From the NCBI GenBank assembly GCA_964350145.1, contig CAYGJL010000001.1, forward strand, positions 25,209 to 89,208: a DNA stretch of 64,000 nucleotides, given 5' to 3'. Each line of letters starts with the position of its first letter. The first letter of the stretch is position 1. Shown piece by piece: positions 8,959 through 49,547 of the stretch. The position numbers and the translations under genes are program-made. Source of the stretch: an uncultured Gemmatimonadaceae bacterium (GTDB lineage Bacteria; Gemmatimonadota; Gemmatimonadetes; Gemmatimonadales; Gemmatimonadaceae). Under the pieces are notes generated by a model. It had not been told where the DNA came from. It ran no database searches and worked only from the letters and a program-made list of their open reading frames with translations.

Positions 8959-8998
8959 TCAGTCGCATTCGCGTCAAATCATTAATACCGAGGAGTTG

Positions 8999-10530: not shown

Positions 10531-10533
10531 TCC

Positions 10534-11529: not shown

Positions 11530-11542
11530 GACGGCTACACTA

Positions 11543-15564: not shown

Positions 15565-15569
15565 CGGAC

Positions 15570-17185: not shown

Positions 17186-17187
17186 CC

Positions 17188-17856: not shown

Positions 17857-17861
17857 CGGAC

Positions 17862-20032: not shown

Positions 20033-20056
20033 CTATCCTTACTTTCATGACTATCC
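20030..20056. repeat. 9-bp direct repeat TGACTATCC x2 (18 bp start to start) in the largest AT-richer intergenic gap
   Basis: Read directly: TGACTATCC at 20030-20038 (includes the upstream TGA stop) and again at 20048-20056. Confidence 0.9.
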
Positions 20057-20062
20057 ACGAAT

Positions 20063-21649
20063 TTGGCGCGCAACGCCCGGTCTCCCCTGGACGGACCGCG
20101 CGCGCGCCCATTCCGATCAATACGGTTAGTGCATAATAAGATTCTCGATCTGGACGAGCTCGCCCGCCAGTTGGATCAGCTCAGGGCGGAAGGAAAGAAG
20201 GTGGTCTTGTCGCACGGTGTGTTCGACTTGCTGCACGTCGGCCACATCCGGCACTTCGAACAGGCAAAGCGTATGGGCGACGTGCTGGTCGTCACGCTGA
20301 CGCAGGACCAGTTCGTGAACAAGGGGCCGCACCGGCCCGCGTTCCCGGAGAACGTGCGCGCCGAATCGCTGGCCGCTCTACGATCCATAGACTTCGTCGC
20401 CGTCAATCGCTGGCCACGGTCGGTGGAGACCATCCGCCTGCTCAAGCCCGATGTGTACGCCAAGGGGCCGGACTACAAGATCGCCGAGAAGGACATCACC
20501 GGTGGAATCACGGCCGAAGCCGAGGCAATTCGCGAGATCGGCGGCGAGATTCGCTTCACGGAAGATGTGAGCTTCAGCTCGTCGCAGTTGCTGAACAAGT
20601 ACTTCTCGCCGTTCACGAAGGAGGTCGCGGATTATCTGGAAGGATTCCGCAAGCGGTATTCGAGCGACGAGATTCTGGACTGGCTCGACAAGGCGTCCCG
20701 CGTGCGCGCTCTTATCGTCGGCGAGGCGATCATCGACGAGTATCTCTTCTGCACTGGTATCGGCAAGTCTACCAAGGACCCGGTGCTCGCGGTGCTGCAG
20801 GAGTGCATCGAGCCCGTCGCCGGCGGCACGCTCGCGATCGCGAATCACCTCGCCGGGCTGTGTGCCGAGGCCGGACTGCTGACGCAGCTTGGCGAGATCG
20901 ATCGGAGAGAGGAGTTCGTGCGCGGCTCGCTCCGCTCGAACATCCGACCTGTGTTCCTCACCAAGTCGGGCAGCCCGACCGTGCGCAAGCGGCGGATCGT
21001 TGACCAGTACTCGGGCAACAAGCTGCTCGAGGTGTACGTGATGGACGACAAGACCACGCAGGGAGAAGACGCGGTGGCCCTCCGGGGGGCGCTGGAGTCC
21101 GAGCTCGACGCGTGGGATATCGCGATCGTCGCCGACTACGGTCACGGCATGATGACCCCGGCGGCCATTCACACCATGTGCGAGCGCGCCCCGTTCCTCG
21201 CCGTGAACGCCCAGTCCAATGCGGGCAATCGCGGCTTCAACCCGCTGTCGCGCTATAAGCGCGCAAGTTACATGTGCGTCGCCGCGCACGAGGCCCGAAT
21301 GGAGTTGCGCGACCGGAACTGCAACCTGAAGGACGCCGTGCTGGAGATCGCCCGTCGTGTGGACTGCCCGCGCTTCACCGTTACATGCGGCAAGGAGGGG
21401 AGCATTCACTTCGACCGGAGCAGCGGTTTCGTCGAAGCGCCCGCGCTCGCCACCAAGATCGAGGACCGCGTCGGAGCGGGCGACGCCGTCCTCGCGATCA
21501 CCTCGCTGCTGTCGTACCTCGACGCGCCGTGGGAGATCATTGCGTTCCTGGGCAACGTCGCCGGGGCGGAGCTGGTCGGCGAGGTCGGCAGCCGGGTCCC
21601 GCTCAACCGCGTGGACCTCGGCAAACACGTCGTTTCGCTGCTCAAGTAA
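20063..21649 (+). CDS. Bifunctional cytidylyltransferase-fold nucleotidyltransferase (N-terminal) / PfkB-family sugar kinase (C-terminal); HldE/RfaE-like with swapped domain order
   Basis: KVVLSHGVFDLLHVGHIRHFEQAK (HxGH nucleotidyltransferase motif) in the N-terminal ~165 aa. C-terminal EDRVGAGDAVLA (PfkB DxxGAGD signature). Start may be GTG 20129. Confidence 0.75.
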   Translation: MARNARSPLDGPRARPFRSIRLVHNKILDLDELARQLDQLRAEGKKVVLSHGVFDLLHVGHIRHFEQAKRMGDVLVVTLTQDQFVNKGPHRPAFPENVRAESLAALRSIDFVAVNRWPRSVETIRLLKPDVYAKGPDYKIAEKDITGGITAEAEAIREIGGEIRFTEDVSFSSSQLLNKYFSPFTKEVADYLEGFRKRYSSDEILDWLDKASRVRALIVGEAIIDEYLFCTGIGKSTKDPVLAVLQECIEPVAGGTLAIANHLAGLCAEAGLLTQLGEIDRREEFVRGSLRSNIRPVFLTKSGSPTVRKRRIVDQYSGNKLLEVYVMDDKTTQGEDAVALRGALESELDAWDIAIVADYGHGMMTPAAIHTMCERAPFLAVNAQSNAGNRGFNPLSRYKRASYMCVAAHEARMELRDRNCNLKDAVLEIARRVDCPRFTVTCGKEGSIHFDRSSGFVEAPALATKIEDRVGAGDAVLAITSLLSYLDAPWEIIAFLGNVAGAELVGEVGSRVPLNRVDLGKHVVSLLK

Positions 21650-21655
21650 CCGGGA

Positions 21656-22903
21656 GTGAAGGCGGGAGAACACGCGTGCACCCTCTGCGCAGGGCGCGTC
21701 ACTGATCTGCTGGATTTCGGGCCGCAGCCGGTATGCAATCGGTTTCTCCCGGCGCCCGACGCAAATGAATACTCGCATGATCTCGCGCTTGGACAATGCG
21801 AATCGTGCGCTCTCGTCCAGATAGTGGACCCGGTGCCGATAGCGGAGCTCGCGTCGCGGTACGAGTGGGTGGTGTATCGCGAGCCCGAGGATCACCTCGA
21901 CGCTCTAGCGCGCGTCATCGCGGAGCTGCCCGGTATCACGCCCGAGTCGGTGGTGGCCGGGCTCAGCACCGTGGATGACTCGCTGCTCCGCCGGCTGCGC
22001 CAGCTCGGTCTGTCGAGGCAGTGGCGGCTGGACACGGCGATAGACCTGGGAGAGGATGTCTATCCGCCGGGAGTGCAGCTCGTGCAGGCGCGGCTCGACG
22101 CCGGCCTGGCGAGCCGGCTCGCGGCCACGCACGGCCGTCCGGACGTATTGATCGGGCGCTTCCTGCTGGAGCACGCGCAGGACGCGAGCCGGTTCCTCGC
22201 CGGCATCAAGGCGCTGATCGGCGACGGCGGGTACGTGGTCGTGGAAGTGCCGGACTGCCGAAAGGCGCAGGAAACGGGTGACTACAGCGCCGTGTGGGAG
22301 GAGCACGCGCTTTATTTCACCGAAGTGACGCTTCAGGAGGCGTTTCGTCGCTCCGGCTTCGAGGTCGTGCGCTTCGTCGCGTACCCGTACGCCATCCAGG
22401 ATTCGCTCGTCCTCATCGCCAGGCCCACGGCGGCGCCGGCAGCCGCCGCGGACGCCCTAGGCGAGGAGCGGGCCCGCTGGCGGGCCTGGGTGCGGGAGCT
22501 ACCGGGCACGCGCGCGCGGGTCCGGAGATTCCTCGGGGACCGGGCTCGCGGCGGCCGTCTGGCGATGTTCGGAGCGGCGCAGCGCGGGTGCAGCTTCATC
22601 AACCTGCTGGAGCTGCAGAGCGAGCTCCACGCCGTGCTGGACGACGACCCGAGGAAGCAGGGCTACTACATGCCCGGCTCGCGCGCGCCGATCCTGCCGT
22701 CCAGCGCTCTGCAAGACGGCGGTTACACTCTATGCTTGCTGGCGGCGCGCCCGGAGAGCCAGGAGCAGCTGCGCCGGGCGCACGCGTCGTTTTCGAAGGC
22801 GGGCGGATCCTTCATCTCCATCTATCCGGACGCGACGTCCGGCCTGCCACTGCTGACCCACATCGAGACAGGGAAAAATGAAGACCACAAAATTCAATCC
22901 TGA
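21656..22903 (+). CDS. NDP-sugar C-methyltransferase family protein (TylCIII/NovU-like architecture), copy 1, with a divergent SAM motif I
   Basis: N-terminal Zn-ribbon CTLC...CESC followed by FGPQPVCNRFL. C-terminal domain (MFGAAQRGCSFINLL...DDDPRKQGYYMPGS) is typical of the family. The motif I position reads VVAGLSTVDDS instead of the (D/E)IGSNDG type. Confidence 0.7.
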   Translation: MKAGEHACTLCAGRVTDLLDFGPQPVCNRFLPAPDANEYSHDLALGQCESCALVQIVDPVPIAELASRYEWVVYREPEDHLDALARVIAELPGITPESVVAGLSTVDDSLLRRLRQLGLSRQWRLDTAIDLGEDVYPPGVQLVQARLDAGLASRLAATHGRPDVLIGRFLLEHAQDASRFLAGIKALIGDGGYVVVEVPDCRKAQETGDYSAVWEEHALYFTEVTLQEAFRRSGFEVVRFVAYPYAIQDSLVLIARPTAAPAAAADALGEERARWRAWVRELPGTRARVRRFLGDRARGGRLAMFGAAQRGCSFINLLELQSELHAVLDDDPRKQGYYMPGSRAPILPSSALQDGGYTLCLLAARPESQEQLRRAHASFSKAGGSFISIYPDATSGLPLLTHIETGKNEDHKIQS

Positions 22904-23435
22904 AGTCTATTTCGCCGCGGGCGACGTCGTGCACGCGACCCGAAGCGACTTCGAATTCCTGCAGCAAGCGGCCGCGGACAGCCCGCGCCGGCGAGCGCGG
23001 GTGTGCGCCCATAAGGACGCGGAAGAGATATTGCACGAAATGATCGTCGTGCTCAAGCGCGATTCGTACCTCATCCCGGAGAAGCACTTCGTCAAGCGGG
23101 AGTCTTATCACGTCATCGAAGGGCTCGCCGACGTCGTGATCTTCGACGAGGAGGGAGAGATCAAGGACGTGGTGCGCCTGGGCGACTACGGCTCGGGCCG
23201 GAGCTTCTACTTCCGCGTGCGCGCGTCGGACTTCTACCACAGCGTGCTCATTCGCTCGGATCACCTGCTGTACCACGAATCGGCGACCGGCCCCTTCCGG
23301 AAAGAAGACACGTTCGTGGCGCCGTGGGCTCCGCCGGAGAGCGACACGGAAGGAAAGAACGCCTATATGAAGGAGCTCGAGCGGCGGGTTGACGAGTTTC
23401 TCGCGAAGCGCGGGGACGGCGATGCCGCAAGCTGA
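22878..23435 (+). CDS. WbuC-family cupin-fold protein
   Basis: About 185 aa. RRRARVCAHKD...LHEMIVVLKRDSYLIPEKH...ESYHVIEG resembles the WbuC cupin family seen in O-antigen clusters. Confidence 0.6.
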   Translation: MKTTKFNPEVYFAAGDVVHATRSDFEFLQQAAADSPRRRARVCAHKDAEEILHEMIVVLKRDSYLIPEKHFVKRESYHVIEGLADVVIFDEEGEIKDVVRLGDYGSGRSFYFRVRASDFYHSVLIRSDHLLYHESATGPFRKEDTFVAPWAPPESDTEGKNAYMKELERRVDEFLAKRGDGDAAS

Positions 23436-24684
23436 CGCCGGCCCGAAGGCGACCGTCCATCACCGGGACAATTGCCGCCTGTGTACGTCATCGGCGGTCG
23501 AGCTGGTGCTCCCGCTCGCGGCCACGCCGCCCGCGGACGCGTACGTTCCGAGGAGCCGTCTCGCCGAGCCTCAGGACCGGTTCCCGCTGGACCTGTACAT
23601 GTGCCGCGACTGCGGGCATGCCCAGCTGCTCGATGTCGTGGACCCAGAGGTCCTGTTCGGCGATTACATCTACGTCACCACCAGCTCCCCGGGCCTCGTG
23701 GAGCATTTCCGGCAATACGCCGAGTGGCTCGAGACCGAGGCGGGCCCGCTGGATGGGAAGCTCGCAGTGGATATCGGCAGCAATGACGGCACGCTGCTGC
23801 GTTTCCTTCAGGGCAGGGGAATGCGCGCTCTCGGTGTGGATGCCGCGGAGCAGATCGCGCGGGACGCCACCGCGTCGGGAGTCGAGACGATCGGCGGCTT
23901 CTTCACGTCCGGGCTCGGCGCCCGGCTCAAGGTCGAGCGCGGCGCCGCGAGCGTCGTGACAGCGAACAACGTCTTCGCTCATGCCGACGACCTCGGCGAC
24001 ATCGCCGATGGGATCCGGGCGCTGCTCGCGCCTGGCGGCATCTTCGTGTTCGAGGTCTCGTACCTGGTGGATCTGGTCACCGGAAAGGTGTTCGACTACA
24101 TCTACCACGAGCATCTCGCCCATCACTCGGTCCGCCCGCTGCAGGGGTTCCTCAAGCGGCACGGCATGGAGCTCGTGGGAGCGGAGCGCGTCGGAACCAA
24201 GGGCGGCTCGCTCCGCTGCACGGCTCAGTTGGCCGCCGGCCCGCGCAGTCAAACCGCTGGCGTTCGCGAGCTGGTTCGCATCGAGGACGAGCTGCGCGTG
24301 CACGAGCCCGAAACGTTCAAGGCTCTGGCGCGGGAGTTGGACGGCATCAAGTCCCGGCTCGCCGGAATGATCCGCGCTTGGCAAGCGGAGGGAAAGACGA
24401 TCGCCGGCTACGGCGCCTCGGCTACCGTCACGACGCTGGTATATCACTTCGACCTTGGCGATTCGCTGAGCTTCATAGTGGACGACAATCCGCGGAGGCA
24501 GGGACTGTACAGCCCCGGTCTGCACATCCCGGTCGTCGCGCCCGGCGCGCTGTACGAGCGGAAGCCGGATGTGGTGATAATTCTCGCCTGGCGTTTCGCC
24601 GAGCCGATCCTCAAGGCCCACCAGCGTTATCTGAAGCAGGGAGGACGGTTCATCATGCCGCTCCCGGAGATCCGCGTCATTTGA
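23422..24684 (+). CDS. NDP-sugar C-methyltransferase (TylCIII/NovU-like), copy 2, canonical motifs
   Basis: Zn-ribbon CRLC...CRDC, LAVDIGSNDGTLLRF (SAM motif I), FVFEVSYL, C-terminal IAGYGASATVTTL...VDDNPRRQGLYSPG. Confidence 0.8.
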   Translation: MPQADAGPKATVHHRDNCRLCTSSAVELVLPLAATPPADAYVPRSRLAEPQDRFPLDLYMCRDCGHAQLLDVVDPEVLFGDYIYVTTSSPGLVEHFRQYAEWLETEAGPLDGKLAVDIGSNDGTLLRFLQGRGMRALGVDAAEQIARDATASGVETIGGFFTSGLGARLKVERGAASVVTANNVFAHADDLGDIADGIRALLAPGGIFVFEVSYLVDLVTGKVFDYIYHEHLAHHSVRPLQGFLKRHGMELVGAERVGTKGGSLRCTAQLAAGPRSQTAGVRELVRIEDELRVHEPETFKALARELDGIKSRLAGMIRAWQAEGKTIAGYGASATVTTLVYHFDLGDSLSFIVDDNPRRQGLYSPGLHIPVVAPGALYERKPDVVIILAWRFAEPILKAHQRYLKQGGRFIMPLPEIRVI

Positions 24685-24697
24685 GGTTCCTGGCAAA

Positions 24698-25573
24698 ATG
24701 AAGGTTCTGCTGATTGGGGGAAGGGGACAGCTCGCAACCAGCTTGCGGGGGGCGCTGGCGGACGACGAAGTCGTGGCTGCCACCCATGGCGAACTGGAGA
24801 TCTGCGACCGGGCGCAAGTGGACGAGTTTGTGGACAGGCTGCGACCCGACATCGTCGTCAACCCAGCGGCGATTCGGAAGCCGGACGAGTGCGAAGCGAA
24901 CCCGGAGAAAGCCTGGGCGGTGAACGCGCTCGGGCCGCGCAATCTTGCGTTAGCCTGTGAGCGCGTCGGGGCGAAGCTGGTCCACATCAGCACGGACAAC
25001 GTTTTCGACGGCACCGCGTCCGCGCCCTATCTCGAGGGGGACCGGACGAATCCGGTCAACGTATACGGGATCACCAAGCTCGCCGCCGAGCAGTTCGTGA
25101 AGGAGATAGCCGGCCGACACCTCATCGTTCGAACGTCGGCGCTCTTCGGGGGTGCACGCGACCCGGGGCGACCGACTAACTTCGTTATGACTTTGTTACA
25201 GCGAGACGCATCCGGCCTCGACACGCATGTCGTGACGGACCAACAGGTGTCGCCGAGCTACACGGAGGACGTCGCGCGGAAGATCGCCTGGCTCGTCCGG
25301 AAGGAGGTCGAGGGAATCTGTCACGTAGCCAACGCGGGCGATTGCAGCTGGCACGAGTTCGCGGAAGCGGTGTTCGAGCTGGCGGGACTCCGCTCGCGGC
25401 TGATATCGATGACGACCGACAAGCTGGGTAGCCCCGCGAGGCGCCTCAAGTATGCCGTGCTGGGCAACGGCGTGCTCGCCCGGCTCGGCGCTGACGACAT
25501 GCCGTTGTGGCGGGACGCGCTGGAGCGATATCTGCGGGAGCTCGGTGCGCGCTCACCGGCCGCTGTGTCGTGA
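24698..25573 (+). CDS. dTDP-4-dehydrorhamnose reductase (RmlD)-like NDP-4-keto-sugar reductase
   Basis: MKVLLIGGRGQLA, HISTDNVFDG, VYGITKLAAEQ (YxxxK), 291 aa. Confidence 0.75.
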   Translation: MKVLLIGGRGQLATSLRGALADDEVVAATHGELEICDRAQVDEFVDRLRPDIVVNPAAIRKPDECEANPEKAWAVNALGPRNLALACERVGAKLVHISTDNVFDGTASAPYLEGDRTNPVNVYGITKLAAEQFVKEIAGRHLIVRTSALFGGARDPGRPTNFVMTLLQRDASGLDTHVVTDQQVSPSYTEDVARKIAWLVRKEVEGICHVANAGDCSWHEFAEAVFELAGLRSRLISMTTDKLGSPARRLKYAVLGNGVLARLGADDMPLWRDALERYLRELGARSPAAVS

Positions 25574-25621: not shown

Positions 25622-26611
25622 GTGAGTAACGAAGATTTCATCGCCATGTACCGGACGATGCGGCTGATCCGGCGGTTCGAGGAGCGAATCGTCGAGTTGG
25701 TCAATCGCAACGAGGTGCCTGGCGTTACGCATGAGTACATCGGGCAGGAAGCTGTGGCGACCGGGGTGTGTCACGCGCTGCAGGTGGACGACGTGATCAC
25801 CAGCACGCACCGCGGGCACGGCCACATCCTGGCCAAGGGCGGCGAGCCGCGGCGAATGATGGCGGAGCTGATGGGCAAGTCCACGGGATACAACAGGGGA
25901 CGTGGCGGGTCCATGCACATCGCCGACCTCGGGCTCGGCATTTACGGCGCCAACGGCATGGTCGGCGGCGGCGTTCCGATCGCGTGCGGCGCCGCGTTTG
26001 CGGCCAAGTCGAACGGCACGGGGCGCGTCGCGGTGGCGTTCTTCGGGGACGGCGGCATCAATCAGGGGGTCGTGCTCGAAGCGATGAACCTAGCCGCCGT
26101 GTGGAAGCTCCCGGTGATCTTTGTGTGCGAGAACAACCGCTACGCCGCGACTACGCCGCTGACCGAAGTGGTCGCCATCGAGCGGCTGGCCGATCGGGCG
26201 GCGGGCTACGGCATGCCCGGCTACACGGTGGACGGCATGGACGTTCTCGCGGTGTACGAGGCTACCGCGAAGGCCGTGGCGCGCGCGCGGGCCGGCGGGG
26301 GACCCACTCTGCTCGAGTGCCTGACGTACCGGTACGTCGGACATTTCACCGCGGAGAAGGCGCGCGGATTCAAGTACCGCACCGAAGAAGAGATCACGGG
26401 CATGAGGCGCCGCGATCCGCTCGTCACTTTTCCCGCGTGGCTCGAGCGGGAGAAGATCTGCGATGTCCCGGCCGTTGACGCCGAAGTGGAGCAGCAACTC
26501 GAGGAAGCGGTACAGTTCGCCCGGGAGAGCAAGGAGTCGGCTCCTGAGGAAGCACTCGAAGGAATGTACGCGGTCACGTATCCTGGTCTTCCTGCGCGGG
26601 GATGGATATGA
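25622..26611 (+). CDS. ThDP-dependent 2-oxoacid dehydrogenase E1 component, alpha subunit (pyruvate/acetoin dehydrogenase type)
   Basis: AAGAGGAG RBS upstream of GTG 25622. YRTMRLIRRFEE, HEYIGQEAV, GGSMH, FFGDGGINQG...CENNRYA (ThDP motif). Confidence 0.85.
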   Translation: MSNEDFIAMYRTMRLIRRFEERIVELVNRNEVPGVTHEYIGQEAVATGVCHALQVDDVITSTHRGHGHILAKGGEPRRMMAELMGKSTGYNRGRGGSMHIADLGLGIYGANGMVGGGVPIACGAAFAAKSNGTGRVAVAFFGDGGINQGVVLEAMNLAAVWKLPVIFVCENNRYAATTPLTEVVAIERLADRAAGYGMPGYTVDGMDVLAVYEATAKAVARARAGGGPTLLECLTYRYVGHFTAEKARGFKYRTEEEITGMRRRDPLVTFPAWLEREKICDVPAVDAEVEQQLEEAVQFARESKESAPEEALEGMYAVTYPGLPARGWI

Positions 26612-27579
26612 GAGAGATTCGATACATGGAGGCGTTCCAGGAGGCGATGCACGCCGAAATGGCCAGAGATCCCAGCATCGTCGCCATGGGTGAGGATGTC
26701 CGGCTCGCCATGCGCGGCTTCATGAAGGGGATCCTCGACAGGTTCGGGCCCGAGCGCATCTACGACACGCCGATCTCCGAATCGGCGTTCACGGGACTCG
26801 CGACCGGCGCGGCGATGGCGGGCATGCGGCCGGTGATAGAGTACCAGATCAACACGTTGTTGTACGTCGCGTTCGACCAGTTGGTGAATCAGGCGCAGAA
26901 GCTCCGATACATGATGGGCGGGCAGGGCACCATCCCTGTCACGTACATCATTCCGTCGGGCGCCCGACGCGGTCTCGCCGGACAGCATTCCGATCATCCG
27001 TATCCGCTACTGATGCACATGGGGATGAAGGTCGTGATGCCGTCCACGCCATACGACGTGAAGGGACTGTTGAGCGCTGCGATCCGCGAGGATGACCCCG
27101 TCGCCTTCTTTGTGCCGGTCTCGCTGTTCGGAGTGAAGGGCCCTGTCCCCGAAGAGGAGTATCTCATCCCGCTTGGCCAGGCCGACGTGAAGCGTGAGGG
27201 GACCGACATTACGGTGATCGCCGTTGGCCCGCTGGTGTCCGATGCGCTCGCGTGCGCGGAGACTCTCGCCGCTGAGGGCGTTTCGCTGGAGGTCGTCGAT
27301 CCGAGATCGCTCCTCCCGCTCGACCGTGACACGATTCTCGGATCTGTCCGAAAGACCGGGCGTGTGGTGATATTCGACGACTCCAACAGAACGTGCGGCT
27401 TCGGAGCCGAGCTCGCCGCGATCATCGCGGAGGAGGCTTTCGACTCGCTAAAGGGCCCTGTCCGGCGCATTACGCGGGCGGACGTTCCCGTGCCGTTCAG
27501 CACGCCGATCGAGACCTACGTATTGCCCTCACGCGCACTGCTTCTCGACAGCTGCCGCGCACTGCTCGCCACAGTCTGA
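26602..27579 (+). CDS. ThDP-dependent 2-oxoacid dehydrogenase E1 component, beta subunit
   Basis: VAMGEDV, DTPISESAFTGLATGAAMAGMRPV, NQAQKLRYMMGG, and a C-terminal transketolase-C-like domain. Confidence 0.85.
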   Translation: MDMREIRYMEAFQEAMHAEMARDPSIVAMGEDVRLAMRGFMKGILDRFGPERIYDTPISESAFTGLATGAAMAGMRPVIEYQINTLLYVAFDQLVNQAQKLRYMMGGQGTIPVTYIIPSGARRGLAGQHSDHPYPLLMHMGMKVVMPSTPYDVKGLLSAAIREDDPVAFFVPVSLFGVKGPVPEEEYLIPLGQADVKREGTDITVIAVGPLVSDALACAETLAAEGVSLEVVDPRSLLPLDRDTILGSVRKTGRVVIFDDSNRTCGFGAELAAIIAEEAFDSLKGPVRRITRADVPVPFSTPIETYVLPSRALLLDSCRALLATV

Positions 27580-27815
27580 TGCTGCACGAAGTCCGCATTC
27601 CGAAGCTCGGGCTCGATACGCTCGAGTGCGACATACGGCAGTGGTTCGTCGCTGTAGGCGAGCGCGTGGAGAAGGGCGCGCCGCTTCTGGAGGTCGAGAC
27701 CGAGAAAGCGGTGATGCCGATCGAGGCCGAGGTGGCAGGCATCCTGCGCGAAGCGCGGGTCAAGCCGGGCGAGACCATTGACGTTGGCGCCGTGATCGGC
27801 CTGATCGAGGACTAG
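27579..27815 (+). CDS. Free-standing lipoyl (biotin/lipoyl attachment) domain protein, 78 aa
   Basis: ATG 27579 shares its A with the upstream TGA. IPKLG...EGAPLLEVETEKAVMPIEAEVAGIL carries the lipoyl-lysine context (E-T-E-K-A). No E2 catalytic domain follows. Confidence 0.75.
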   Translation: MLHEVRIPKLGLDTLECDIRQWFVAVGERVEKGAPLLEVETEKAVMPIEAEVAGILREARVKPGETIDVGAVIGLIED

Positions 27816-27872: not shown

Positions 27873-29111
27873 ATGACGCCGCACCCTGTCGCGGTGGGCA
27901 ACTGCGCCGAAGAGATTTACTTCGGGCTGCTGAAAGCGCGGCGGGAGCGAAAAAAGCTCGCGATACTGCTCCCGTTCGAGCTGTTTCGGCGGGGCGGCCC
28001 ACGGACGGCCAACGGAGTGGTGGCGGCGGTCGGCTCCGAATTCCGCGCCGTCTCCCCTCGCTCGCCTGCCGGGCTGCTCGGCAGGGCGGCTATCACGGCC
28101 TATTTCGGCTTCTTTCGCGTTCTCGGCTTTCTGCTCAGAAAGCTGTTCCGGCGCGAGCTTCCCGCGGTCTATCTCCACCCTGCCCTGGGGACGTACACGC
28201 TCTGGCAGCCGCGCGACGACATGTCCTTCTCCTGGGCGGTCGTTGACGAGTACCGGTGGCGGGAGCAGCTCGCGACGCCATTGCCGGTGTGGCTGGACGA
28301 CGCCGACGGGCAGGTGGCGCTCGGCCAGCTGGGTGCGCTCGGCCTTCCCGGGGACGCGTGGTGGGTGTGCCTGCACGTTCGCGAGGGCGGCTTCTGGGGA
28401 GACCAGTGCGTTGAGCGCAACGCCGACATCGCCAATTACATCGGGGCGATCGAGGAGATAACCAGCCGTGGCGGATGGGTCGTGCGAATGGGCGATTCGA
28501 CCATGAAACGGCTGCCGCCGATGGAGCGGGTGATAGACTATCCCTTCACGGGGGCCAAAAGCCCGCTGATGGACGTGTTTCTGATCAGCGGGTGCCGCAT
28601 GTACATCGGCATGTCTTCCGGCATCTACGAGATAGCGATTCTCTTTCAGCGACCCATAATTCTCACGAATATGTGGAGCTGGATATTTCCCTATCCCCAG
28701 AAGCCCGGCGATCTGAGTCTGCTCAAGCACGTGTATTCCAGGTCGCGCGGCAGATTCCTGTCGCTGAGCGAGTGGCTCGCCGAGCCCTTCGACTCCCACT
28801 TCTTCTACACGGTCGGCGAGGACTACGAGTATCACGAGAACGACAGCGACGAGCTCCGCGCGGTGGTAAGGGAATTTTTCGAGCGGCCCGATAACTGGCA
28901 GCCGACCGAGCTGCAGCGGGCGTTCAGCGAGGGGCGGCTCGTGCACGGACGCCGGCTGCTGGGGCAGGCCGAGCCGATCATCCCGAACAACGACTTCGCC
29001 GACTCGCACCAGCGCTACCGGCTGGCCTCGCGCTTGGAATCCTCAACCGGGTTCCTGGGCTCGGAGTTCGCTCGGCGCAACTGGGAGCGGGACGCGAGAA
29101 ATCCATCATGA
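27873..29111 (+). CDS. Orphan protein, possible glycosyltransferase-like enzyme
   Basis: 412-codon ORF between the lipoyl carrier and legB. N-terminus GNCAEEIYFGLLKARRERKKLAILLP. I loosely recall a similar N-terminus in an NCBIfam family annotated as a putative glycosyltransferase (TIGR04372). This is not verifiable here. Confidence 0.4.
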   Translation: MTPHPVAVGNCAEEIYFGLLKARRERKKLAILLPFELFRRGGPRTANGVVAAVGSEFRAVSPRSPAGLLGRAAITAYFGFFRVLGFLLRKLFRRELPAVYLHPALGTYTLWQPRDDMSFSWAVVDEYRWREQLATPLPVWLDDADGQVALGQLGALGLPGDAWWVCLHVREGGFWGDQCVERNADIANYIGAIEEITSRGGWVVRMGDSTMKRLPPMERVIDYPFTGAKSPLMDVFLISGCRMYIGMSSGIYEIAILFQRPIILTNMWSWIFPYPQKPGDLSLLKHVYSRSRGRFLSLSEWLAEPFDSHFFYTVGEDYEYHENDSDELRAVVREFFERPDNWQPTELQRAFSEGRLVHGRRLLGQAEPIIPNNDFADSHQRYRLASRLESSTGFLGSEFARRNWERDARNPS

Positions 29112-29124
29112 CATCACCAGCAAA

Positions 29125-30123
29125 GTGAAGAAAGTCCTGATCACCGGTGCCGATGGCTTCATCGGCTCGCATCTCACCGAGGCGGCGGTGCGCGCCGGGT
29201 TCGACGTGCGGGCCTTCGTCTTCTACAACTCCTTCAACTCGTGGGGCTGGCTGGATCGGTGCGCGCCCGACGTGAAGGGGAAGTTCGAGGTGTTCGCCGG
29301 CGACGTGCGCGATCCGAACGGGGTGCGGACCGCGATGAAGGACCGCGACGCGGTTCTGCATCTGGCGGCCATGATTGCTATTCCGTATTCGTACGACTCC
29401 CCTGACACGTACGTGGACACCAACGTCAAGGGCACGCTGAACATCGTACAGGCCGCGCGCGATCTCGGCATCGCGAAGGTCGTGCACACTTCGACCAGCG
29501 AGGTCTATGGCACGGCCCGCTTCGTCCCCATCACGGAGGAGCATCCGCTGCAGGGACAGTCGCCCTATTCGGCGACCAAGATCGGGGCCGACCAGCTGGC
29601 GATGTCCTTTCATTCATCGTTCGGGACGCCGGTCAGCATCGTGCGCCCGTTCAACACATACGGCCCGCGGCAGTCGGCCAGGGCGGTGATCCCGACGGTG
29701 ATCACGCAGATCGCCAGCGGGGAGCGCGCCATCCGGCTGGGCGACACGAGACCCACGCGGGATTTCAGCTTCGTGTCGGACACCGTGGCTGGTTTTCTTG
29801 CCGCGATGACATCCGAGCGGAGCGTGGGCGAGGTCATCAACCTCGGGAGCAACTTCGAGATATCCATCAGGGACGCCGCCGCAGCGATCGCCGACGTGAT
29901 GGGGGTGGAGATAGAGATTGTCACGGACCAGCAGCGCGTGCGTCCGGAGGCTAGCGAGGTGGAACGGCTGTACGCCTCGAACGAGAAGGCGCGCGATCTT
30001 CTGGGATGGTCTCCGCGCTACGGCGGCCTCGAGGGGTTCCTCCGGGGGATCGGGGAGACGGTGAACTGGTTCCGAGAGCCCGCCAACCTCGCGGCGTACA
30101 AGTCGGACATCTACAACCTGTAA
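29125..30123 (+). CDS. legB: NDP-GlcNAc 4,6-dehydratase of the legionaminic acid pathway (LegB-type extended SDR)
   Basis: KVLITGADGFIGSHL, FVFYNSFNSWGWLD (typical of the LegB-type family), TSTSEVYG, YSATKIGAD. First gene of a collinear leg set. Confidence 0.75.
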   Translation: MKKVLITGADGFIGSHLTEAAVRAGFDVRAFVFYNSFNSWGWLDRCAPDVKGKFEVFAGDVRDPNGVRTAMKDRDAVLHLAAMIAIPYSYDSPDTYVDTNVKGTLNIVQAARDLGIAKVVHTSTSEVYGTARFVPITEEHPLQGQSPYSATKIGADQLAMSFHSSFGTPVSIVRPFNTYGPRQSARAVIPTVITQIASGERAIRLGDTRPTRDFSFVSDTVAGFLAAMTSERSVGEVINLGSNFEISIRDAAAAIADVMGVEIEIVTDQQRVRPEASEVERLYASNEKARDLLGWSPRYGGLEGFLRGIGETVNWFREPANLAAYKSDIYNL

Positions 30124-30128
30124 CGCAC

Positions 30129-31310
30129 TTGCCCACCCGGACACCGCTCGCTGATCAGGTCGTCGCCGCCGTCGCGGCAGTCGTCGGAAAAGGTCCGGTC
30201 GCGCTGCACGAACCGCTCTTCGTCGGCAACGAGTGGAGCTATCTGAAAGAATGTTTGGACTCGACGTTCGTTTCCTCCGTCGGAAAGTTCGTAGACCGTT
30301 TCGAAGGTGATTTGGCCGCATTCACCGGCGCCGGGTACGCGGTCGCGGTTGTGAACGGCACCGCGGCGCTGCATATCGCGTTGAGCCTCGCCGGCGTACA
30401 GCGGGACGACGAAGTGCTCATCCCCTCGCTCACCTTCATCGCGACCGCGAACGCCGTGAAGTACTGCGGCGCTGTGCCGCACTTCGCCGAGAGCGAGGCG
30501 GCGACGCTTGGACTCGACCCGCGCGCCCTGCGCGAATACCTGACGGCCGCGGCCGAGCTGCGCGGCGGGGTGCTCGTGAACCGCGCTACGGGGCGCGTGA
30601 TCCGCGCACTGGTCCCGATGCACACCTTCGGACACCCGGTGGACATGGAGGGCACGCTGGCCGTTGCCCGGGATTTCAATCTCGCGCTCGTCGAGGACGC
30701 CGCCGAGTCGCTGGGCAGCACCATAGGCGGACGGCATGCCGGGACGTTCGGTCTCCTGAGCTCGCTCAGCTTCAACGGGAACAAGACCATCACTACCGGC
30801 GGCGGGGGAGCGATCCTCACCAACGACCCGACTCTCGCGAAACGCGCCAAGCACCTCACGACCACCGCGAAGGTGCCGCATCGCTGGGAGTACCGGCACG
30901 ACGAAGTCGGATACAATTACCGGCTGCCGAACCTCAACGCCGCGCTCGGGTGCGCGCAGCTGGAGCAGCTACCGCGCTTCGTCGAGGCGAAGCGAAAGCT
31001 GTTCGAGCTGTATCGCGATGCTTTCAGCGGCGTACGCGGCGCCCGCGTGTTCGCGGAGCCGGCTGGCTGCCGGAGCAACTATTGGCTGCAGACGCTGCTG
31101 CTGGACGAGTCCGCCGCGGGGGAACGCGACGCGGTGCTGGCTGCCACGAACGATGCGGGACTGATGACGCGTCCTCCGTGGACTCTGATGCACAGGCTCG
31201 AGCCTTACAAAGACTGCCCCCGGATGCCGTTGGCGGTTGCCGAATCGCTCGAGCGGCGTCTGCTCAACCTGCCAAGCAGCTCGCAGCTGGTGCTGAAGGA
31301 CGGACCGTGA
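30129..31310 (+). CDS. legC: Legionaminic acid pathway aminotransferase (LegC-type DegT family)
   Basis: HEPLFVGNEWSYLKECLDS, VVNGTAALHIAL, SFNGNKTITTGGGGAILTND (PLP lysine). Start inferred as TTG 30129, just after the legB stop. Confidence 0.75.
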   Translation: MPTRTPLADQVVAAVAAVVGKGPVALHEPLFVGNEWSYLKECLDSTFVSSVGKFVDRFEGDLAAFTGAGYAVAVVNGTAALHIALSLAGVQRDDEVLIPSLTFIATANAVKYCGAVPHFAESEAATLGLDPRALREYLTAAAELRGGVLVNRATGRVIRALVPMHTFGHPVDMEGTLAVARDFNLALVEDAAESLGSTIGGRHAGTFGLLSSLSFNGNKTITTGGGGAILTNDPTLAKRAKHLTTTAKVPHRWEYRHDEVGYNYRLPNLNAALGCAQLEQLPRFVEAKRKLFELYRDAFSGVRGARVFAEPAGCRSNYWLQTLLLDESAAGERDAVLAATNDAGLMTRPPWTLMHRLEPYKDCPRMPLAVAESLERRLLNLPSSSQLVLKDGP

Positions 31311-31939
31311 GCAAGGCCGGCCTGCTGCTGCTCGGGGCGGGCGGCCACGCCCGCGCGTGTATCGACGTCATCGAGCAGGAAGACCGGTTTACCGTAGCGG
31401 GTCTGGTCGGGCTGCCGGCAGAAAAGGGCACCGACGTGCTTGGCTATCCGGTGCTGGGCGCGGATGCGGACCTGCCCGAGCTCCTGGCCCAGTTCGAGCA
31501 CGCGCTGGTCACGGTAGGGCAGATCAAGACGCCTGAGCTGAGAATCCGGCTGTTCGGCATCGCCGAGGAGCACGGGCGCACGCTGCCCGCGGTGATATCG
31601 CCGTTGGCGTACGTCTCGCGCCACGCGCGAATCGGCGCCGGCACGGTGGTGCTGCATGGCGCGGTCGTGAATGCAGGCGCCAGCGTGGGGCGGAACTGCA
31701 TTGTGAACAGCCAGGTTCTGATCGAGCACGACGCCGAGATCGGGGATCACTGCCACATCGCCACGGCGGCGGCGGTCAACAGCGGCGTGCACGTCGGCGC
31801 GGGCACGTTCATCGGCAGTGGCACCTGCGTGCGACAGGCTATCCGCATCGGCGAGCGGTGCGTGATCGGCATGGGCCAGCGCGTTCTGGCGGATTGTGAG
31901 CCTGGTACGCGCATGCCACCCTGGTCGGGGCGCGTTTGA
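31307..31939 (+). CDS. legH: NeuD/PglD-family hexapeptide N-acetyltransferase (LegH-type)
   Basis: GTG 31307 (GTGA overlap). LLLLGAGGHARACIDVIE N-terminal Rossmann-like domain and left-handed beta-helix repeats IGAGTVVLHGAVVNAGASVGRNCIVNS. Confidence 0.7.
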   Translation: MSKAGLLLLGAGGHARACIDVIEQEDRFTVAGLVGLPAEKGTDVLGYPVLGADADLPELLAQFEHALVTVGQIKTPELRIRLFGIAEEHGRTLPAVISPLAYVSRHARIGAGTVVLHGAVVNAGASVGRNCIVNSQVLIEHDAEIGDHCHIATAAAVNSGVHVGAGTFIGSGTCVRQAIRIGERCVIGMGQRVLADCEPGTRMPPWSGRV

Positions 31940-32937
31940 AGACGCTGATCATCGCCGAGGCGGGCGTAAATCACAACGGCGATCTCGATCTCGCGCGCCG
32001 CCTGATCGACGTGGCTGCGGCGGCCGGGGCGGACGCGGTGAAATTCCAGACGTTCGTGGCCGACAGGCTCGTGACGGGGCACGCGGAGAAGGCGCAGTAC
32101 CAGAAGGACTCCGGGACCCCCGGCGAATCGCAGCGCGACATGATCCGCCGGCTGGAGCTCGATCGCGAAGCGCATGTGAGTCTCAAGGCGCACGCGATCT
32201 CGCGGAACATCGCCTTTCTCTCGACGGGCTTCGACGTGGAGAGCGTGGACATGCTGGTCGAGCTCGGAGTGTCGCTGCTCAAGGTTCCGTCGGGGGAGAT
32301 TGCCAACCTCCCTTACCTCCGACACGTGGGGCGGTTGGGCTTGCCGGTGATTCTTTCCACGGGCATGGCGACGATGGATGAGATCGGGGCCGCTCTGGAG
32401 ACTCTCGTCGGGGCCGGAGCGCGCCGGGACCGGATCACGGTCCTGCACTGCACGACGGAATACCCGACGCCGATGGATGACGTAAACCTCAAGGCTATGG
32501 TCGCCATCCGGGACGCATTCGGCGTGGACGTCGGCTACTCCGACCACACGATGGGTATCGAGGTCGCCATCGCCGCGGTGGCGCTCGGGGCTTCGGTGAT
32601 CGAAAAACACTTCACGCTCGACCGGAGTCTCCCTGGACCCGACCACAAGGCCAGCCTCGAGCCGGCGGAGCTCGAGTCGATGGTGCGGGCCATCCGGGGA
32701 ATCGAGCGCGCTCTTGGCGACGGCCTCAAGCGGCCGACGGCGGGCGAGGCGCGCAACAGGCTTGTCGCGCGCAAGTCTCTGGTCGCCCGCGTGCCTATTC
32801 GCGCGGGCGAGCAGTTTACAGAGGCGAACCTTGCTGTGAAGCGTCCGGGTAACGGGGTGTCCCCAATGCGGTGGGACGAGGTGTTGGGGCGGAAAGCGTC
32901 CCGTGACTTCGCGCCGGACGAGTTGATCGAGCTGTGA
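31936..32937 (+). CDS. legI: Legionaminic acid synthase (NeuB family), copy 2
   Basis: LIIAEAGVNHNGDLDLARRLID...DAVKFQ, C-terminal SAF domain. TTGA overlap with legH. Confidence 0.85.
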   Translation: MKTLIIAEAGVNHNGDLDLARRLIDVAAAAGADAVKFQTFVADRLVTGHAEKAQYQKDSGTPGESQRDMIRRLELDREAHVSLKAHAISRNIAFLSTGFDVESVDMLVELGVSLLKVPSGEIANLPYLRHVGRLGLPVILSTGMATMDEIGAALETLVGAGARRDRITVLHCTTEYPTPMDDVNLKAMVAIRDAFGVDVGYSDHTMGIEVAIAAVALGASVIEKHFTLDRSLPGPDHKASLEPAELESMVRAIRGIERALGDGLKRPTAGEARNRLVARKSLVARVPIRAGEQFTEANLAVKRPGNGVSPMRWDEVLGRKASRDFAPDELIEL

Positions 32938-34094: not shown

Positions 34095-34172
34095 CGAGAG
34101 TTCACACTGAAGACAGACATCGAGAGTGCGGCGACGGACCGGACTGCCCCGACAGAAGCCTGGCGGCAGGCG

Positions 34173-49543: not shown

Positions 49544-49547
49544 CGCA

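What the first reader, a model, noticed from the sequence alone, without database searches (positions are those of the whole stretch)
25622..27815. ThDP-dependent E1 alpha/beta plus a free-standing lipoyl carrier, without E2 core or E3, inside a glycan operon
The E1 alpha (GDGGINQG...CENNRYA) and E1 beta genes are followed, with a shared-nucleotide stop/start, by a 78-aa protein that is only a lipoyl domain (LLEVETEKAVMPIEAEV). No acyltransferase (E2 catalytic) or dihydrolipoamide dehydrogenase gene occurs anywhere in the 64 kb. As far as I recall, E1-type pairs are implicated in installing two-carbon branches on deoxysugars in actinomycete antibiotic pathways (AviB1/B2 in avilamycin; AlmDI/DII for aldgarose). 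A dedicated lipoyl carrier suggests something different. Oxidative decarboxylation of a 2-oxoacid could give an S-acyl-dihydrolipoyl protein, which would then serve as the acyl donor for sugar N- or O-acylation or C-acylation by a neighbouring enzyme. Candidates are the orphan at 27873 or one of the GNATs. I am not aware of a described glycan pathway that uses a lipoyl protein as acyl carrier.
Basis: partly seen in the sequence, partly recalled or inferred. Interest (0 to 1): 0.7.

Follow-up and report, generated by a model that had tools for sequence, protein, structure and literature searches.

The report
E2-less E1 plus free lipoyl protein
A sugar-coat gene cluster carries a pyruvate/acetoin-dehydrogenase-type E1 enzyme pair and a tiny stand-alone lipoyl protein but lacks the rest of the usual complex; this trio is a conserved, uncharacterised module found in many bacteria, and what it does to the sugar is still unknown.

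Summary
E1 alpha (25622-26611), E1 beta (26602-27579) and a 78-aa lipoyl-only protein (27579-27815, TGATG overlap) are real. No E2 core or E3 occurs in the 64 kb by Pfam, motif search or tblastn.

The trio is not a local oddity. About 80 genomes and MAGs carry E1a-E1b-free Lip in this order, in two clades. One of them holds cultured Erythrobacter, Porphyrobacter and Blastomonas, and most loci are not glycan-related.

A distinct sub-clade sits in glycan clusters as RmlD-E1a-E1b-Lip, after two sugar C-methyltransferases and a WbuC cupin. There Lip is under purifying selection (dN/dS 0.1-0.27). The residues for ThDP activation and reductive acylation are all kept. The glycan sub-clade alone has Ala at the thiazolium-contact residue (I206alpha of G. 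stearothermophilus E1p).

The "orphan" at 27873 is a GT-B glycosyltransferase closest to GT9 heptosyltransferases, not an acyltransferase. A Herbaspirillum cluster has the same sugar genes without the trio.

Best reading (about 0.4): E1 loads an acyl unit onto its private lipoyl protein, which is used to tailor an NDP-sugar. Direct AviB-type C-branching is not excluded.

This is a new variant of a known kind. The biochemistry is untested.

The parts
25622..26611 (+). E1 alpha subunit (ThDP-binding), 329 aa
   Evidence: PF00676, E 2.5e-86. TIGR03182 PDH_E1_alph_y scores 347 bits, below its 394 cutoff. Best PDB match is human PDH E1 alpha, E 1e-64. G142-D143-G ... N171-N172 and H241 (= H271alpha of G. 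stearothermophilus E1p) are conserved. A176 is equivalent to I206alpha and is Ala only in the glycan sub-clade.
26602..27579 (+). E1 beta subunit, 325 aa
   Evidence: Transket_pyr plus Transketolase_C. NF006667 scores 310 bits against a 321 cutoff. Best PDB match is T. thermophilus 2-oxoacid DH beta, E 1e-77. E60 (= E59beta) and H129 (= H128beta) are conserved. The F82beta and F85beta positions are I83 and L86.
27579..27815 (+). Free-standing lipoyl-domain protein (Lip), 78 aa, start overlapping the E1 beta stop (TGATG)
   Evidence: PF00364, E 5.6e-18. Best NCBIfam match is the N-terminus of acetoin-DH E2, NF011457, 75 bits. K43 aligns with the lipoyl-lysine of E. coli E2p. AF2 model pLDDT 96.4; the best folds are E2 lipoyl domains, TM 0.81-0.95. 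The family has 18 invariant columns, including RIPKLG and ExEK. dN/dS is 0.10-0.27.
24698..25573 (+). RmlD-type NDP-4-keto-6-deoxyhexose reductase, conserved directly upstream of E1 alpha in glycan-context loci
   Evidence: TIGR01214 rmlD scores 264 bits, above its 224 cutoff. It precedes E1 alpha in the window, L005, L006, L171, L172 and L174.
21656..24684 (+). Sugar C-methyltransferase, WbuC-family cupin, second sugar C-methyltransferase: a block co-conserved with the trio
   Evidence: Methyltransf_13/14 domains are present twice. The cupin matches TIGR04366 cupin_WbuC, E 3.8e-31. The same order occurs in L005, L006 and L171, and the genes lie beside Lip in L017.
27873..29111 (+). TIGR04372-family protein, GT-B glycosyltransferase-like; a recurrent downstream neighbour, not an acyltransferase
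   Evidence: TIGR04372, E 2e-48. AF2 model pLDDT 91.6. Foldseek best hits are GT9 heptosyltransferases 3tov, 1psw, 2h1h and 4rb4, probability 1.0. Homologues follow Lip in L172, L173, L005 and L006. It is also present in L175 without the trio.

Best explanation
The three genes encode a self-contained, E2-less variant of a pyruvate/acetoin-dehydrogenase system: a ThDP-dependent alpha2beta2 E1 and its own private lipoyl carrier protein.

Proposed mechanism: E1 forms the ThDP-bound enamine from a 2-oxoacid or an acyloin-type donor. It then reductively acylates the lipoyl-lysine (K43) of the 78-aa protein, giving an S-acyl-dihydrolipoyl protein.

In this cluster the module was recruited, together with an RmlD-type reductase, as a late tailoring step on a C-methylated, aminated NDP-(hepto/hexo)se made by the upstream genes. 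The acyl unit would be delivered to that sugar as an N-, O- or C-acyl group. A housekeeping dihydrolipoamide dehydrogenase would re-oxidise the carrier.

Shown here:
- The gene anatomy and the absence of E2 and E3 in the window.
- Conservation and purifying selection of the trio.
- Intact catalytic residues.
- A glycan-specific active-site substitution.

Inferred:
- Lipoylation of the 78-aa protein.
- The identity of the donor.
- The fate of the acyl group.
- The re-oxidation route.
For: 1. Lip is a bona fide lipoyl domain. Its lysine is in register with the E. coli E2p lipoyl-lysine.

2. All homologues found by sequence are free-standing, 76-99 aa. In 78 of 80 genome loci the order is E1a-E1b-Lip and the Lip ORF stops 0-7 aa after the domain.

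3. Every locus where the partner could be scored and E1 alpha is at least 58% identical has a free Lip, about 20 loci in all. E1 alpha relatives at 45-55% mostly carry a full E2, with 288-416 aa after the lipoyl domain, most of those checked containing DHRxxDG.

4. The residues for ThDP activation (E59beta) and for reductive acylation (H128beta, H271alpha; roles from PMC2663715) are invariant in all trio groups.

5. In glycan-context pairs, Lip dN/dS is 0.10-0.27 against 0.04-0.15 for E1 alpha and beta. Lip is therefore needed there too.

6. The TGATG overlap suggests translational coupling.

7. Glycan-context trios form one E1 alpha sub-clade. RmlD lies upstream in 6 of 6 loci where the upstream is visible.

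8. The sugar sub-cluster at 8.9-29 kb has two aminotransferases but no acyltransferase gene. This is circumstantial.

9. A precedent exists for an E1/transketolase-type enzyme loading a C2 acyl unit on lipoyl in secondary metabolism: QncN/L/M and SclQ1-4 (PMC6335953).
Against: - No enzyme that could take an acyl group from the lipoyl protein was identified. There is no E2 core, no AcoC-type alpha/beta-hydrolase domain and no ACP in the window. The neighbour at 27873 is a glycosyltransferase.
- Across glycan and non-glycan trios no common fourth partner is visible.
- The glycan sub-clade carries Ala at the I206alpha-equivalent. In G. stearothermophilus E1p the I206A mutation raised DCPIP activity 13-fold and cut PDH-complex activity to 35% (PMC2663715). 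That favours access of a non-lipoyl acceptor.
- The neighbours (C-methyltransferases, RmlD) all work on 4-keto sugars. That is the substrate of the known AviB-type branching reaction.
- Lipoylation, substrate and product are all untested.
Confidence: 0.4

Rival explanations
1. AviB1/B2-type branching. The E1 pair decarboxylates pyruvate and adds the hydroxyethyl-ThDP carbanion directly to the C4 keto group of the NDP-sugar, giving a C-acetyl branch. The RmlD-like enzyme then reduces a keto group. Lip is only an accessory that orders the active-site loops, acts as an overflow acceptor or regulates.
For: - The trio sits in a block of enzymes that act on NDP-4-keto sugars: two TylC3-type C-methyltransferases, a cupin and RmlD.
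- E1 pairs are the proposed installers of C4 acetyl branches in avilamycin and paulomycin (PMC4425429 and PMC4753412).
- Only the glycan sub-clade has Ala at the thiazolium-contact residue (6 of 6, against I/V/Q, E or M/E/I/S in the other 150 sequences).
- The same change, I206A in G. stearothermophilus E1p, opens the pocket and boosts reaction with a non-lipoyl acceptor.
Against: - Lip is kept in all 8 glycan-context loci (window, L005, L006, L017, L171-L174). Its lipoyl-lysine motif is intact and its dN/dS is 0.1-0.27.
- H128beta, which is needed for the lipoate step, is conserved. This residue also acts in the first step, so the argument is weak.
- Known branching pairs need no lipoyl protein.
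- Orthology to AviB1/B2 could not be tested, because no sequences were available here.
Confidence: 0.27
2. Acyl-CoA supply through housekeeping enzymes. E1 acylates the free Lip, and the cell's general E2 core and E3 (encoded elsewhere) convert acyl-Lip to acyl-CoA. The N-acetyltransferases and GNATs of the cluster use that acyl-CoA. In effect this is a displaced acetoin/pyruvate dehydrogenase front end.
For: - The nearest relatives outside the clade are ordinary E1a-E1b-E2 operons, often followed by Zn-ADH (acetoin type).
- The Lip domain is most similar to the AcoC N-terminus.
- Databases annotate the clade as pyruvate or acetoin dehydrogenase E1.
- The cluster has several CoA-dependent acyltransferases: PglD-like at 30950, and GNATs at 56881 and 62917.
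Against: - In L022 a canonical E1a-E1b-E2 operon and the trio lie side by side, which suggests separate roles.
- The loss of the E2 core and of the peripheral-subunit-binding domain is ancient and is conserved across at least 120 E1 alpha clusters.
- The active-site stretch around H128beta is remodelled in the trio clade.
- Acetyl-CoA is not limiting enough to explain a dedicated, selected module.
Confidence: 0.13
3. Oxidative C-C cleavage. As in acetoin cleavage, E1 splits an alpha-hydroxyketone or a 2-keto-acid function on the sugar itself, such as a keto side chain of a heptose or an ulosonic acid. Lip acts as oxidant and acyl acceptor. The result is a chain-shortened sugar acid, or its thioester.
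For: - The E1 has acetoin-dehydrogenase-type ancestry.
- SDR or RmlD-type dehydrogenases are recurrent neighbours in glycan, Rokubacteria-type and Sphingomonadales loci.
- The cluster makes heptose-type and nonulosonic (2-keto acid) sugars.
- The enlarged pocket (A176) could admit a sugar-sized donor.
Against: - No precedent was found.
- Nothing in the cluster is predicted to use a sugar thioester.
- The chemistry is speculative and rests on inference only.
Confidence: 0.08

Closest known systems
Acetoin dehydrogenase enzyme system (AcoA/AcoB/AcoC/AcoL) and heterotetrameric pyruvate dehydrogenase E1
   Same: It has E1 alpha/beta of the same families with all catalytic residues. The lipoyl domain is most similar to the AcoC N-terminus. 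The nearest outgroup operons are E1a-E1b-E2, with or without Zn-ADH.
   Different: There is no E2 catalytic or peripheral-subunit-binding part and no E3. The lipoyl domain is a separate 78-aa protein. The F82beta/F85beta nest around H128beta is replaced by I and L. The genes are embedded in a glycan operon.
AviB1/AviB2, Pau11/Pau12 (E1-like pairs proposed to attach the two-carbon branch of eurekanate and paulomycose)
   Same: It is an E1 alpha/beta pair inside a deoxysugar pathway next to enzymes that handle 4-keto sugars.
   Different: The described pairs have no lipoyl partner. Here a conserved, selected lipoyl protein is translationally coupled to E1 beta. Sequence relatedness to AviB1/B2 was not tested.
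QncN/QncL/QncM and SclQ1-4 (glycolyl unit for quinocarcin, naphthyridinomycin and scleric acid)
   Same: A ThDP E1/transketolase-type enzyme loads a C2 acyl unit onto a lipoyl group for use in secondary metabolism (PMC6335953).
   Different: There the lipoyl domain is fused to an E2-type acyltransferase domain and hands the acyl group to an ACP. Here neither an acyltransferase domain nor an ACP exists. The pathway here is a glycan, not an NRPS product.
Alphaproteobacterial PDH E1 beta with an N-terminal lipoyl domain (NCBIfam NF008854)
   Same: A lipoyl domain is associated with E1 rather than with E2. Lip matches positions 1-77 of that model.
   Different: In that system the domain is fused to E1 beta, and a full E2 and E3 are still present (general knowledge). 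Here it is separate and E2 and E3 are missing.
Stand-alone lipoyl proteins such as the glycine-cleavage H protein
   Same: It is a small free carrier with a lipoyl-lysine that shuttles between enzymes.
   Different: GcvH belongs to a different Pfam family from PF00364 (general knowledge, not tested here). Lip is an E2-type lipoyl domain.

Membership tests
Heterotetrameric 2-oxoacid/acetoin dehydrogenase E1 (alpha2beta2, ThDP) | E1_dh domain in alpha; Transket_pyr plus Transketolase_C domains in beta | tested here: met
   (E 2.5e-86; 4e-31; 5e-38). PDB homologues at E 1e-64 and 1e-77.
Heterotetrameric 2-oxoacid/acetoin dehydrogenase E1 (alpha2beta2, ThDP) | ThDP/Mg motif GDG...NN, cofactor-activating Glu (E59beta), and His residues for reductive acylation (H128beta, H271alpha) | tested here: met
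   G142-D143, N171-N172, H241 alpha, E60 beta and H129 beta are invariant in all trio groups. Their roles are taken from PMC2663715.
Heterotetrameric 2-oxoacid/acetoin dehydrogenase E1 (alpha2beta2, ThDP) | Scores above the curated equivalog cut-offs for PDH E1 alpha and beta | tested here: not met
   TIGR03182 scores 347.5 against a 393.85 cutoff. NF006667 scores 310 against 321. Both are close but below: it is a family member, not a PDH equivalog.
2-oxoacid dehydrogenase multienzyme complex (E1-E2-E3) | [quoted passage not shown] | tested here: not met
   None in the 64 kb. In the +/-10 kb flanks of 31 close-clade loci there is no E3. The only E2-type catalytic domains are the canonical Aco-type operon and a separate AcoC-type alpha/beta-hydrolase ORF in L022, plus a similar alpha/beta-hydrolase ORF in L009. 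The rest of the genome is not visible.
Lipoyl domain (PF00364, E2 type) | Flattened beta-barrel fold with the modifiable Lys at the hairpin tip, in a (D/E)K(A/V) context rather than the biotin MKM context | tested here: met
   Pfam E 5.6e-18. K43 in ETEKA aligns with the lipoyl-Lys of E. coli E2p. Model pLDDT is 96.4, with TM 0.81-0.95 to lipoyl domains. K43 is invariant in 26 sequences.
Lipoyl domain (PF00364, E2 type) | Actual lipoylation of the lysine | not testable with these tools
   This needs mass spectrometry or an anti-lipoate blot. No lipoate ligase or synthase gene is in the window (Pfam).
AviB1/AviB2-type sugar C2-branching E1 pair | E1 alpha/beta pair inside a deoxysugar pathway with 4-keto-sugar enzymes | tested here: met
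   C-methyltransferases, a WbuC cupin and RmlD lie directly upstream.
AviB1/AviB2-type sugar C2-branching E1 pair | Works without a lipoyl carrier (none encoded with the pair) | tested here: not met
   A conserved Lip is coupled to E1 beta. The paulomycin and avilamycin pairs are listed without one.
AviB1/AviB2-type sugar C2-branching E1 pair | Sequence orthology to AviB1/B2 or Pau11/12 | not tested
   Those sequences could not be obtained.
QncN/QncL/QncM-type C2-acyl loading system | ThDP enzyme plus lipoyl domain | tested here: met
QncN/QncL/QncM-type C2-acyl loading system | E2-type acyltransferase domain fused to the lipoyl domain, and a dedicated ACP | tested here: not met
   The Lip ORF ends at the domain boundary. 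There is no E2 core and no ACP motif.
TIGR04372 / GT-B glycosyltransferase (for the neighbour at 27873) | Match to the TIGR04372 model and a two-Rossmann-domain GT-B fold | tested here: met
   164.5 bits against a 45 cutoff. Model pLDDT 91.6. Best folds are GT9 heptosyltransferases, probability 1.0, but TM is only 0.3-0.39. Transferase activity is untested.

The most novel reading that the evidence does not exclude
The S-acyl-dihydrolipoyl form of the 78-aa protein is itself the acyl donor for a sugar, with no E2 and no CoA. That would be a lipoyl-protein-based acyl carrier system in glycan biosynthesis. More broadly, E1 plus free Lip would be a widespread, unrecognised two-component oxidative acyl-transfer module used in both catabolism and biosynthesis.
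Probability: 0.27. Interest if true: 0.85.

Novelty: new variant of a known kind. Interest (0 to 1): 0.6.

Why it matters
2-oxoacid and acetoin dehydrogenases are textbook three-component machines. Here E1 and a lipoyl carrier persist under selection without E2 or E3. The arrangement is present in at least 120 E1 alpha sequence clusters. It is found in cultured Sphingomonadales, which makes it experimentally tractable.

If the acyl-lipoyl protein is used directly, that would be a new way to activate and deliver acyl groups. It would also explain an unassigned step in a family of very large glycan clusters that build C-methylated higher sugars next to legionaminic-acid genes.

If instead E1 branches the sugar directly, the natural I206A-type substitution would show how a dehydrogenase E1 is retuned into a carboligase.

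Either outcome assigns a function to genes now annotated as pyruvate or acetoin dehydrogenase in the wrong context.

Tried and rejected
- **Lipoyl-profile search of protein representatives.** The search covered 1.84 billion representatives. The ranking was dominated by multi-lipoyl E2 proteins, so it gave no family size.
- **Literature searches.** Queries covered E1 or lipoyl with O-antigen, nonulosonic acids and stand-alone lipoyl proteins, older annotation phrases, and TIGR04372. No description of an E1-plus-free-lipoyl module was found. "Lipoylation" in PMC4875605 means fatty acylation. LarG in Pelobacter is GcvH-like and unrelated.
- **Search for a split-off AcoC catalytic part.** AcoC-type alpha/beta-hydrolase homologues lie near the trio only in L022, L009 and L087, and none is in the window. 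This was rejected as a general partner.
- **TIGR04372 as the acyltransferase.** Rejected on fold and because it occurs without the trio.
- **Lip as a biotin carrier.** Sequence matches to BCCP models are far weaker than to E2 lipoyl domains, and the MKM motif is absent. Rejected.
- **Lip as a decaying E2 remnant.** Rejected by conservation and dN/dS.
- **Cys17 of Lip as a general catalytic feature.** It is nearly invariant only in the close clade, and it is Met or Val in Sphingomonadales. Left unexplained.
- **Organism of the window.** Exact-sequence look-ups gave no name.
Full report
**1. The observation**

E1 alpha (25622-26611, 329 aa) matches PF00676 at E 2.5e-86. E1 beta (26602-27579, 325 aa) has Transket_pyr and Transketolase_C. 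The 78-aa product of 27579-27815 is nothing but a Biotin_lipoyl domain (E 5.6e-18).

The E1 beta stop and the Lip start share one base, reading cTGATGc. E1 alpha and E1 beta overlap as well. GC3 of the short ORF (0.85) matches its neighbours.

The claim that no E2 core or E3 is present in the 64 kb holds by three independent tests:
- Pfam on all 60 plus-strand genes.
- Six-frame motif searches for DHRxxDG and GGxCxNxGC.
- tblastn with five E2 and three E3 proteins taken from related loci, which hit only the lipoyl domain.

There is also no ACP motif and no sizeable intergenic gap.

**2. The proteins**

E1 alpha is closest to PDH-type E1 alpha (human, E 1e-64). E1 beta is closest to T. thermophilus and G. 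stearothermophilus E1 beta (E 1e-77 and 1e-71). Both score just under NCBI's PDH equivalog cut-offs.

The following are all present and invariant in every trio examined:
- the ThDP/Mg motif (GDG...NN);
- the cofactor-activating Glu (E59beta);
- the two histidines assigned to the lipoate half-reaction (H128beta, H271alpha; PMC2663715).

Lip aligns with E2 lipoyl domains. Its K43 is in register with the lipoyl-lysine of E. coli E2p. Its best NCBIfam match is the N-terminus of the acetoin-dehydrogenase E2. Its AlphaFold model (pLDDT 96.4) superposes on solved lipoyl domains with TM 0.81-0.95.

**3. The trio is a conserved module**

A sequence search with Lip returned 31 proteins, all free-standing and 76-99 aa long. 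A scan of one genome per species found 80 loci. In 78 of them my tblastn maps show E1a-E1b-Lip in that order, with the Lip frame ending 0-7 residues after the domain.

Two clades exist:
- **Close clade** (E1 alpha 58-84% identical): MAGs of Rokubacteria/Methylomirabilia, Tectomicrobia, Elusimicrobia, Betaproteobacteria, Bryobacterales and Gaiellales. It amounts to at least 120 clusters at 90% identity.
- **Second clade** (about 41% identical): fills the Sphingomonadales, including cultured Erythrobacter, Porphyrobacter, Blastomonas and Altererythrobacter. There the operon is TonB receptor-SDR-E1a-E1b-Lip-SnoaL.

A metagenome scan with E1 alpha gives the contrast. Relatives at 45-55% identity mostly have a full E2, with 288-416 residues after the lipoyl domain (most of those checked contain DHRxxDG), and often Zn-ADH genes. 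These are ordinary acetoin- or pyruvate-dehydrogenase operons.

The +/-10 kb flanks of 31 close-clade loci hold no E3. The only E2-type catalytic domains found there are a canonical Aco-type operon and an AcoC-type alpha/beta-hydrolase ORF in L022, and a similar ORF in L009. The E2-less state is therefore ancestral to the clade and maintained, not a local deletion.

**4. Context in this window**

The window is one unidirectional glycan cluster of about 60 genes.

Upstream of the trio lies a nucleotide-heptose-type route:
- GmhA-like SIS protein (9910);
- HAD phosphatase (15570);
- APH-type kinase (16139);
- HldE-like protein with swapped domain order (20063);
- its own split transketolase (13805-15564);
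- a 4,6-dehydratase;
- two aminotransferases;
- two TylC3-type sugar C-methyltransferases flanking a WbuC cupin;
- an RmlD equivalog.

Downstream lies a TIGR04372 protein and a complete legionaminic-acid-type cassette: LegB- and LegC-like genes, a PglD-like acetyltransferase, NeuB, NeuC, a PtmE-like NTP-transferase, a GFO/MocA oxidoreductase, a CMP-synthetase and an SDR.

Seven other loci place the trio in the same kind of cluster (L005, L006, L017, L171, L172, L173, L174). RmlD directly precedes E1 alpha in all six loci where the upstream is visible. TIGR04372 paralogues and/or B12-radical-SAM genes follow Lip.

In an NJ tree of 156 E1 alpha sequences the glycan-context trios form one group. 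It is sister to the non-glycan Rokubacteria-type trios. This points to one recruitment into glycan clusters.

Herbaspirillum rhizosphaerae has the same methyltransferase/ADH/C-MT/cupin/C-MT/HldE-like/TIGR04372 block without RmlD and the trio. The trio is therefore an optional tailoring add-on.

**5. Is Lip needed in the glycan clusters?**

Between the window and L171, L005 and L006, dN/dS for lip is 0.10-0.27, against 0.04-0.15 for E1 alpha and beta. dS is near saturation, so these values are rough. Eighteen columns, including RIPKLG, W22 and ExEK43, are invariant across 26 sequences. A vestigial or dispensable Lip is unlikely.

**6. Clade-specific active-site changes**

- **The nest around H128beta.** The two phenylalanines that embed H128beta in G. 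stearothermophilus E1p (F82beta, F85beta) are Ile and Leu in 22 of 23 close-clade trios. The first is Leu in all 57 Sphingomonadales trios. E2-linked relatives keep Phe or Tyr at the first position in 22 of 23.
- **The thiazolium-contact residue.** Only seven positions are fixed differently between glycan and non-glycan trios. One is alpha-176, which by ungapped motif alignment (NNRYA-A vs NNRFA-I) equals I206alpha, the residue that contacts the thiazolium ring. It is Ala in 6 of 6 glycan trios and never Ala in the other 150 sequences, which have I/V/Q, E or M/E/I/S.
- **Experimental context.** The engineered I206A mutant of the Geobacillus enzyme had 13-fold higher activity with the artificial acceptor DCPIP and 35% of PDH-complex activity (PMC2663715, Table 3). 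The glycan lineage therefore has a naturally opened pocket at the enamine. This fits a bulkier donor or the entry of a non-lipoyl acceptor such as a keto sugar.

**7. The neighbour proposed as acyltransferase**

The 412-aa "orphan" is TIGR04372 (E 2e-48). With a 42-sequence alignment it models at pLDDT 91.6. It matches GT-B enzymes best, above all the GT9 heptosyltransferases (3tov, WaaF 1psw, WaaC 2h1h, TibC 4rb4). Probability is 1.0, but TM is only 0.3-0.39, so this is a fold-level assignment.

That fits the heptose-type pathway upstream. Together with its presence in the trio-less Herbaspirillum cluster, it argues against a role as acceptor of acyl-Lip.

**8. Mechanism**

Best-supported reading: the trio works as it is built. 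E1 makes the ThDP enamine and reductively acylates its private lipoyl protein. In the glycan lineage the resulting acyl unit is used to tailor the NDP-sugar, and a housekeeping E3 re-oxidises the carrier. I give this about 0.4.

The steps from acyl-Lip onward are inference. No acyl-accepting enzyme was found. The lack of an acyltransferase beside the two aminotransferases of the sugar sub-cluster is only circumstantial.

Rivals:
- **Direct AviB-type carboligation onto the 4-keto sugar, with Lip as accessory (about 0.27).** The 4-keto-sugar neighbours and the I206A-type change favour it. The selected, intact Lip argues against it.
- **Hand-over to housekeeping E2/E3 to make acyl-CoA (about 0.13).**
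- **Acetoin-like oxidative cleavage of a keto function on the sugar itself (about 0.08).**

**9. Comparison with known systems and novelty**

The module belongs to the E1 and lipoyl-domain families but fails the defining feature of the complex, a co-encoded E2 core and E3. It resembles AviB1/B2 and Pau11/12 in context but differs by its lipoyl partner. It resembles QncN/L/M and SclQ1-4 in using lipoyl as a C2-acyl station outside central metabolism, but it lacks their acyltransferase domain and ACP.

Six further literature searches found no description of an E1-plus-free-lipoyl module or of TIGR04372. The library is incomplete, so this is not proof of absence.

I class it as a new variant of a known kind. 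Interest is 0.6: a conserved, tractable and apparently unstudied module with two concrete, testable mechanistic alternatives, but no biochemical evidence yet.

Noticed in passing
window 9910-21649: A nucleotide-heptose-type route with unusual parts: a GmhA-like SIS protein (9910-10530), a split transketolase (13805-14647 and about 14650-15564), a HAD phosphatase, an APH-type kinase, a SAM methyltransferase, a Zn-ADH, and an HldE-like bifunctional protein with the cytidylyl/adenylyl-transferase domain N-terminal to the PfkB kinase, the reverse of HldE.
   Followed up: partly
window 1876-2907 and 31936-32937: Two NeuB-family synthases in one cluster. The second sits in a complete legionaminic-acid-type cassette (29125-37783). 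The first has its own CMP-synthetase (4273), a GFO/MocA oxidoreductase (5052) and an Ldh_2-family dehydrogenase (6092).
   Followed up: no
window 27873-29111: A TIGR04372 protein with no Pfam match. The confident AF2 model has a GT-B fold nearest to GT9 heptosyltransferases. The family has at least 378 members at E below 1e-10, and no paper in the library mentions it.
   Followed up: yes
window 26602-27579 (E1 beta residues 80-91): The active-site stretch reads EYQIN(T/A)LL(Y/F)VAF in the trio clade and E(L/I)MFxDFxxVAM in E2-linked relatives. The F82beta position is Ile or Leu in both free-Lip clades (79 of 80) but Phe or Tyr in 22 of 23 E2-linked relatives. This is possibly convergent and is unexplained.
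   Followed up: partly
window 27579-27815 (Lip residue 17): A Cys replaces the Gly of the usual E2 'TEG' surface loop next to the lipoyl-lysine hairpin. It is nearly invariant in the close clade but is Met or Val in the Sphingomonadales clade. Its function is unknown.
   Followed up: partly
L022 5927-6742; L009 13009-13722: A separate alpha/beta-hydrolase protein homologous to the C-terminal domain of one AcoC-type E2 lies just upstream of the trio in L022 and about 9 kb downstream in L009. L022 also carries a canonical E1a-E1b-E2 operon on the other strand.
   Followed up: partly
L025-L090 (e.g. L035, Erythrobacter donghaensis DSM 16220, 4258-11019): Cultured Sphingomonadales carry TonB-dependent receptor-SDR-E1a-E1b-free Lip-SnoaL-like protein, with no E2 or E3 nearby. 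This looks like a catabolic operon of unknown substrate.
   Followed up: partly
L175 (Herbaspirillum rhizosphaerae GCA_001189965.1): A cultured organism has a closely related sugar block: methyltransferase 87% and Zn-ADH 71% identical, plus C-MT, DUF6016 cupin, C-MT, HldE-like and TIGR04372. It lacks RmlD and the trio, which makes it a natural comparison strain.
   Followed up: partly
L005 10251-16914; L006 11707-13626; L174 2798-4339; L007 4383-5774: B12-binding radical-SAM genes recur next to the trio in four loci, three of them glycan-type. None is present in the window.
   Followed up: no
window 41830-43614, 46375-47802, 48902-50420, 58632-60605: Further tailoring genes: a PhyH-dioxygenase/methyltransferase fusion, a MaoC-dehydratase/SDR fusion, a HisH/HisF-like amidotransferase pair and an asparagine-synthase-like enzyme. 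Several 350-560-aa proteins have no family match: 39983, 43615, 45338, 50417 and 51583.
   Followed up: no
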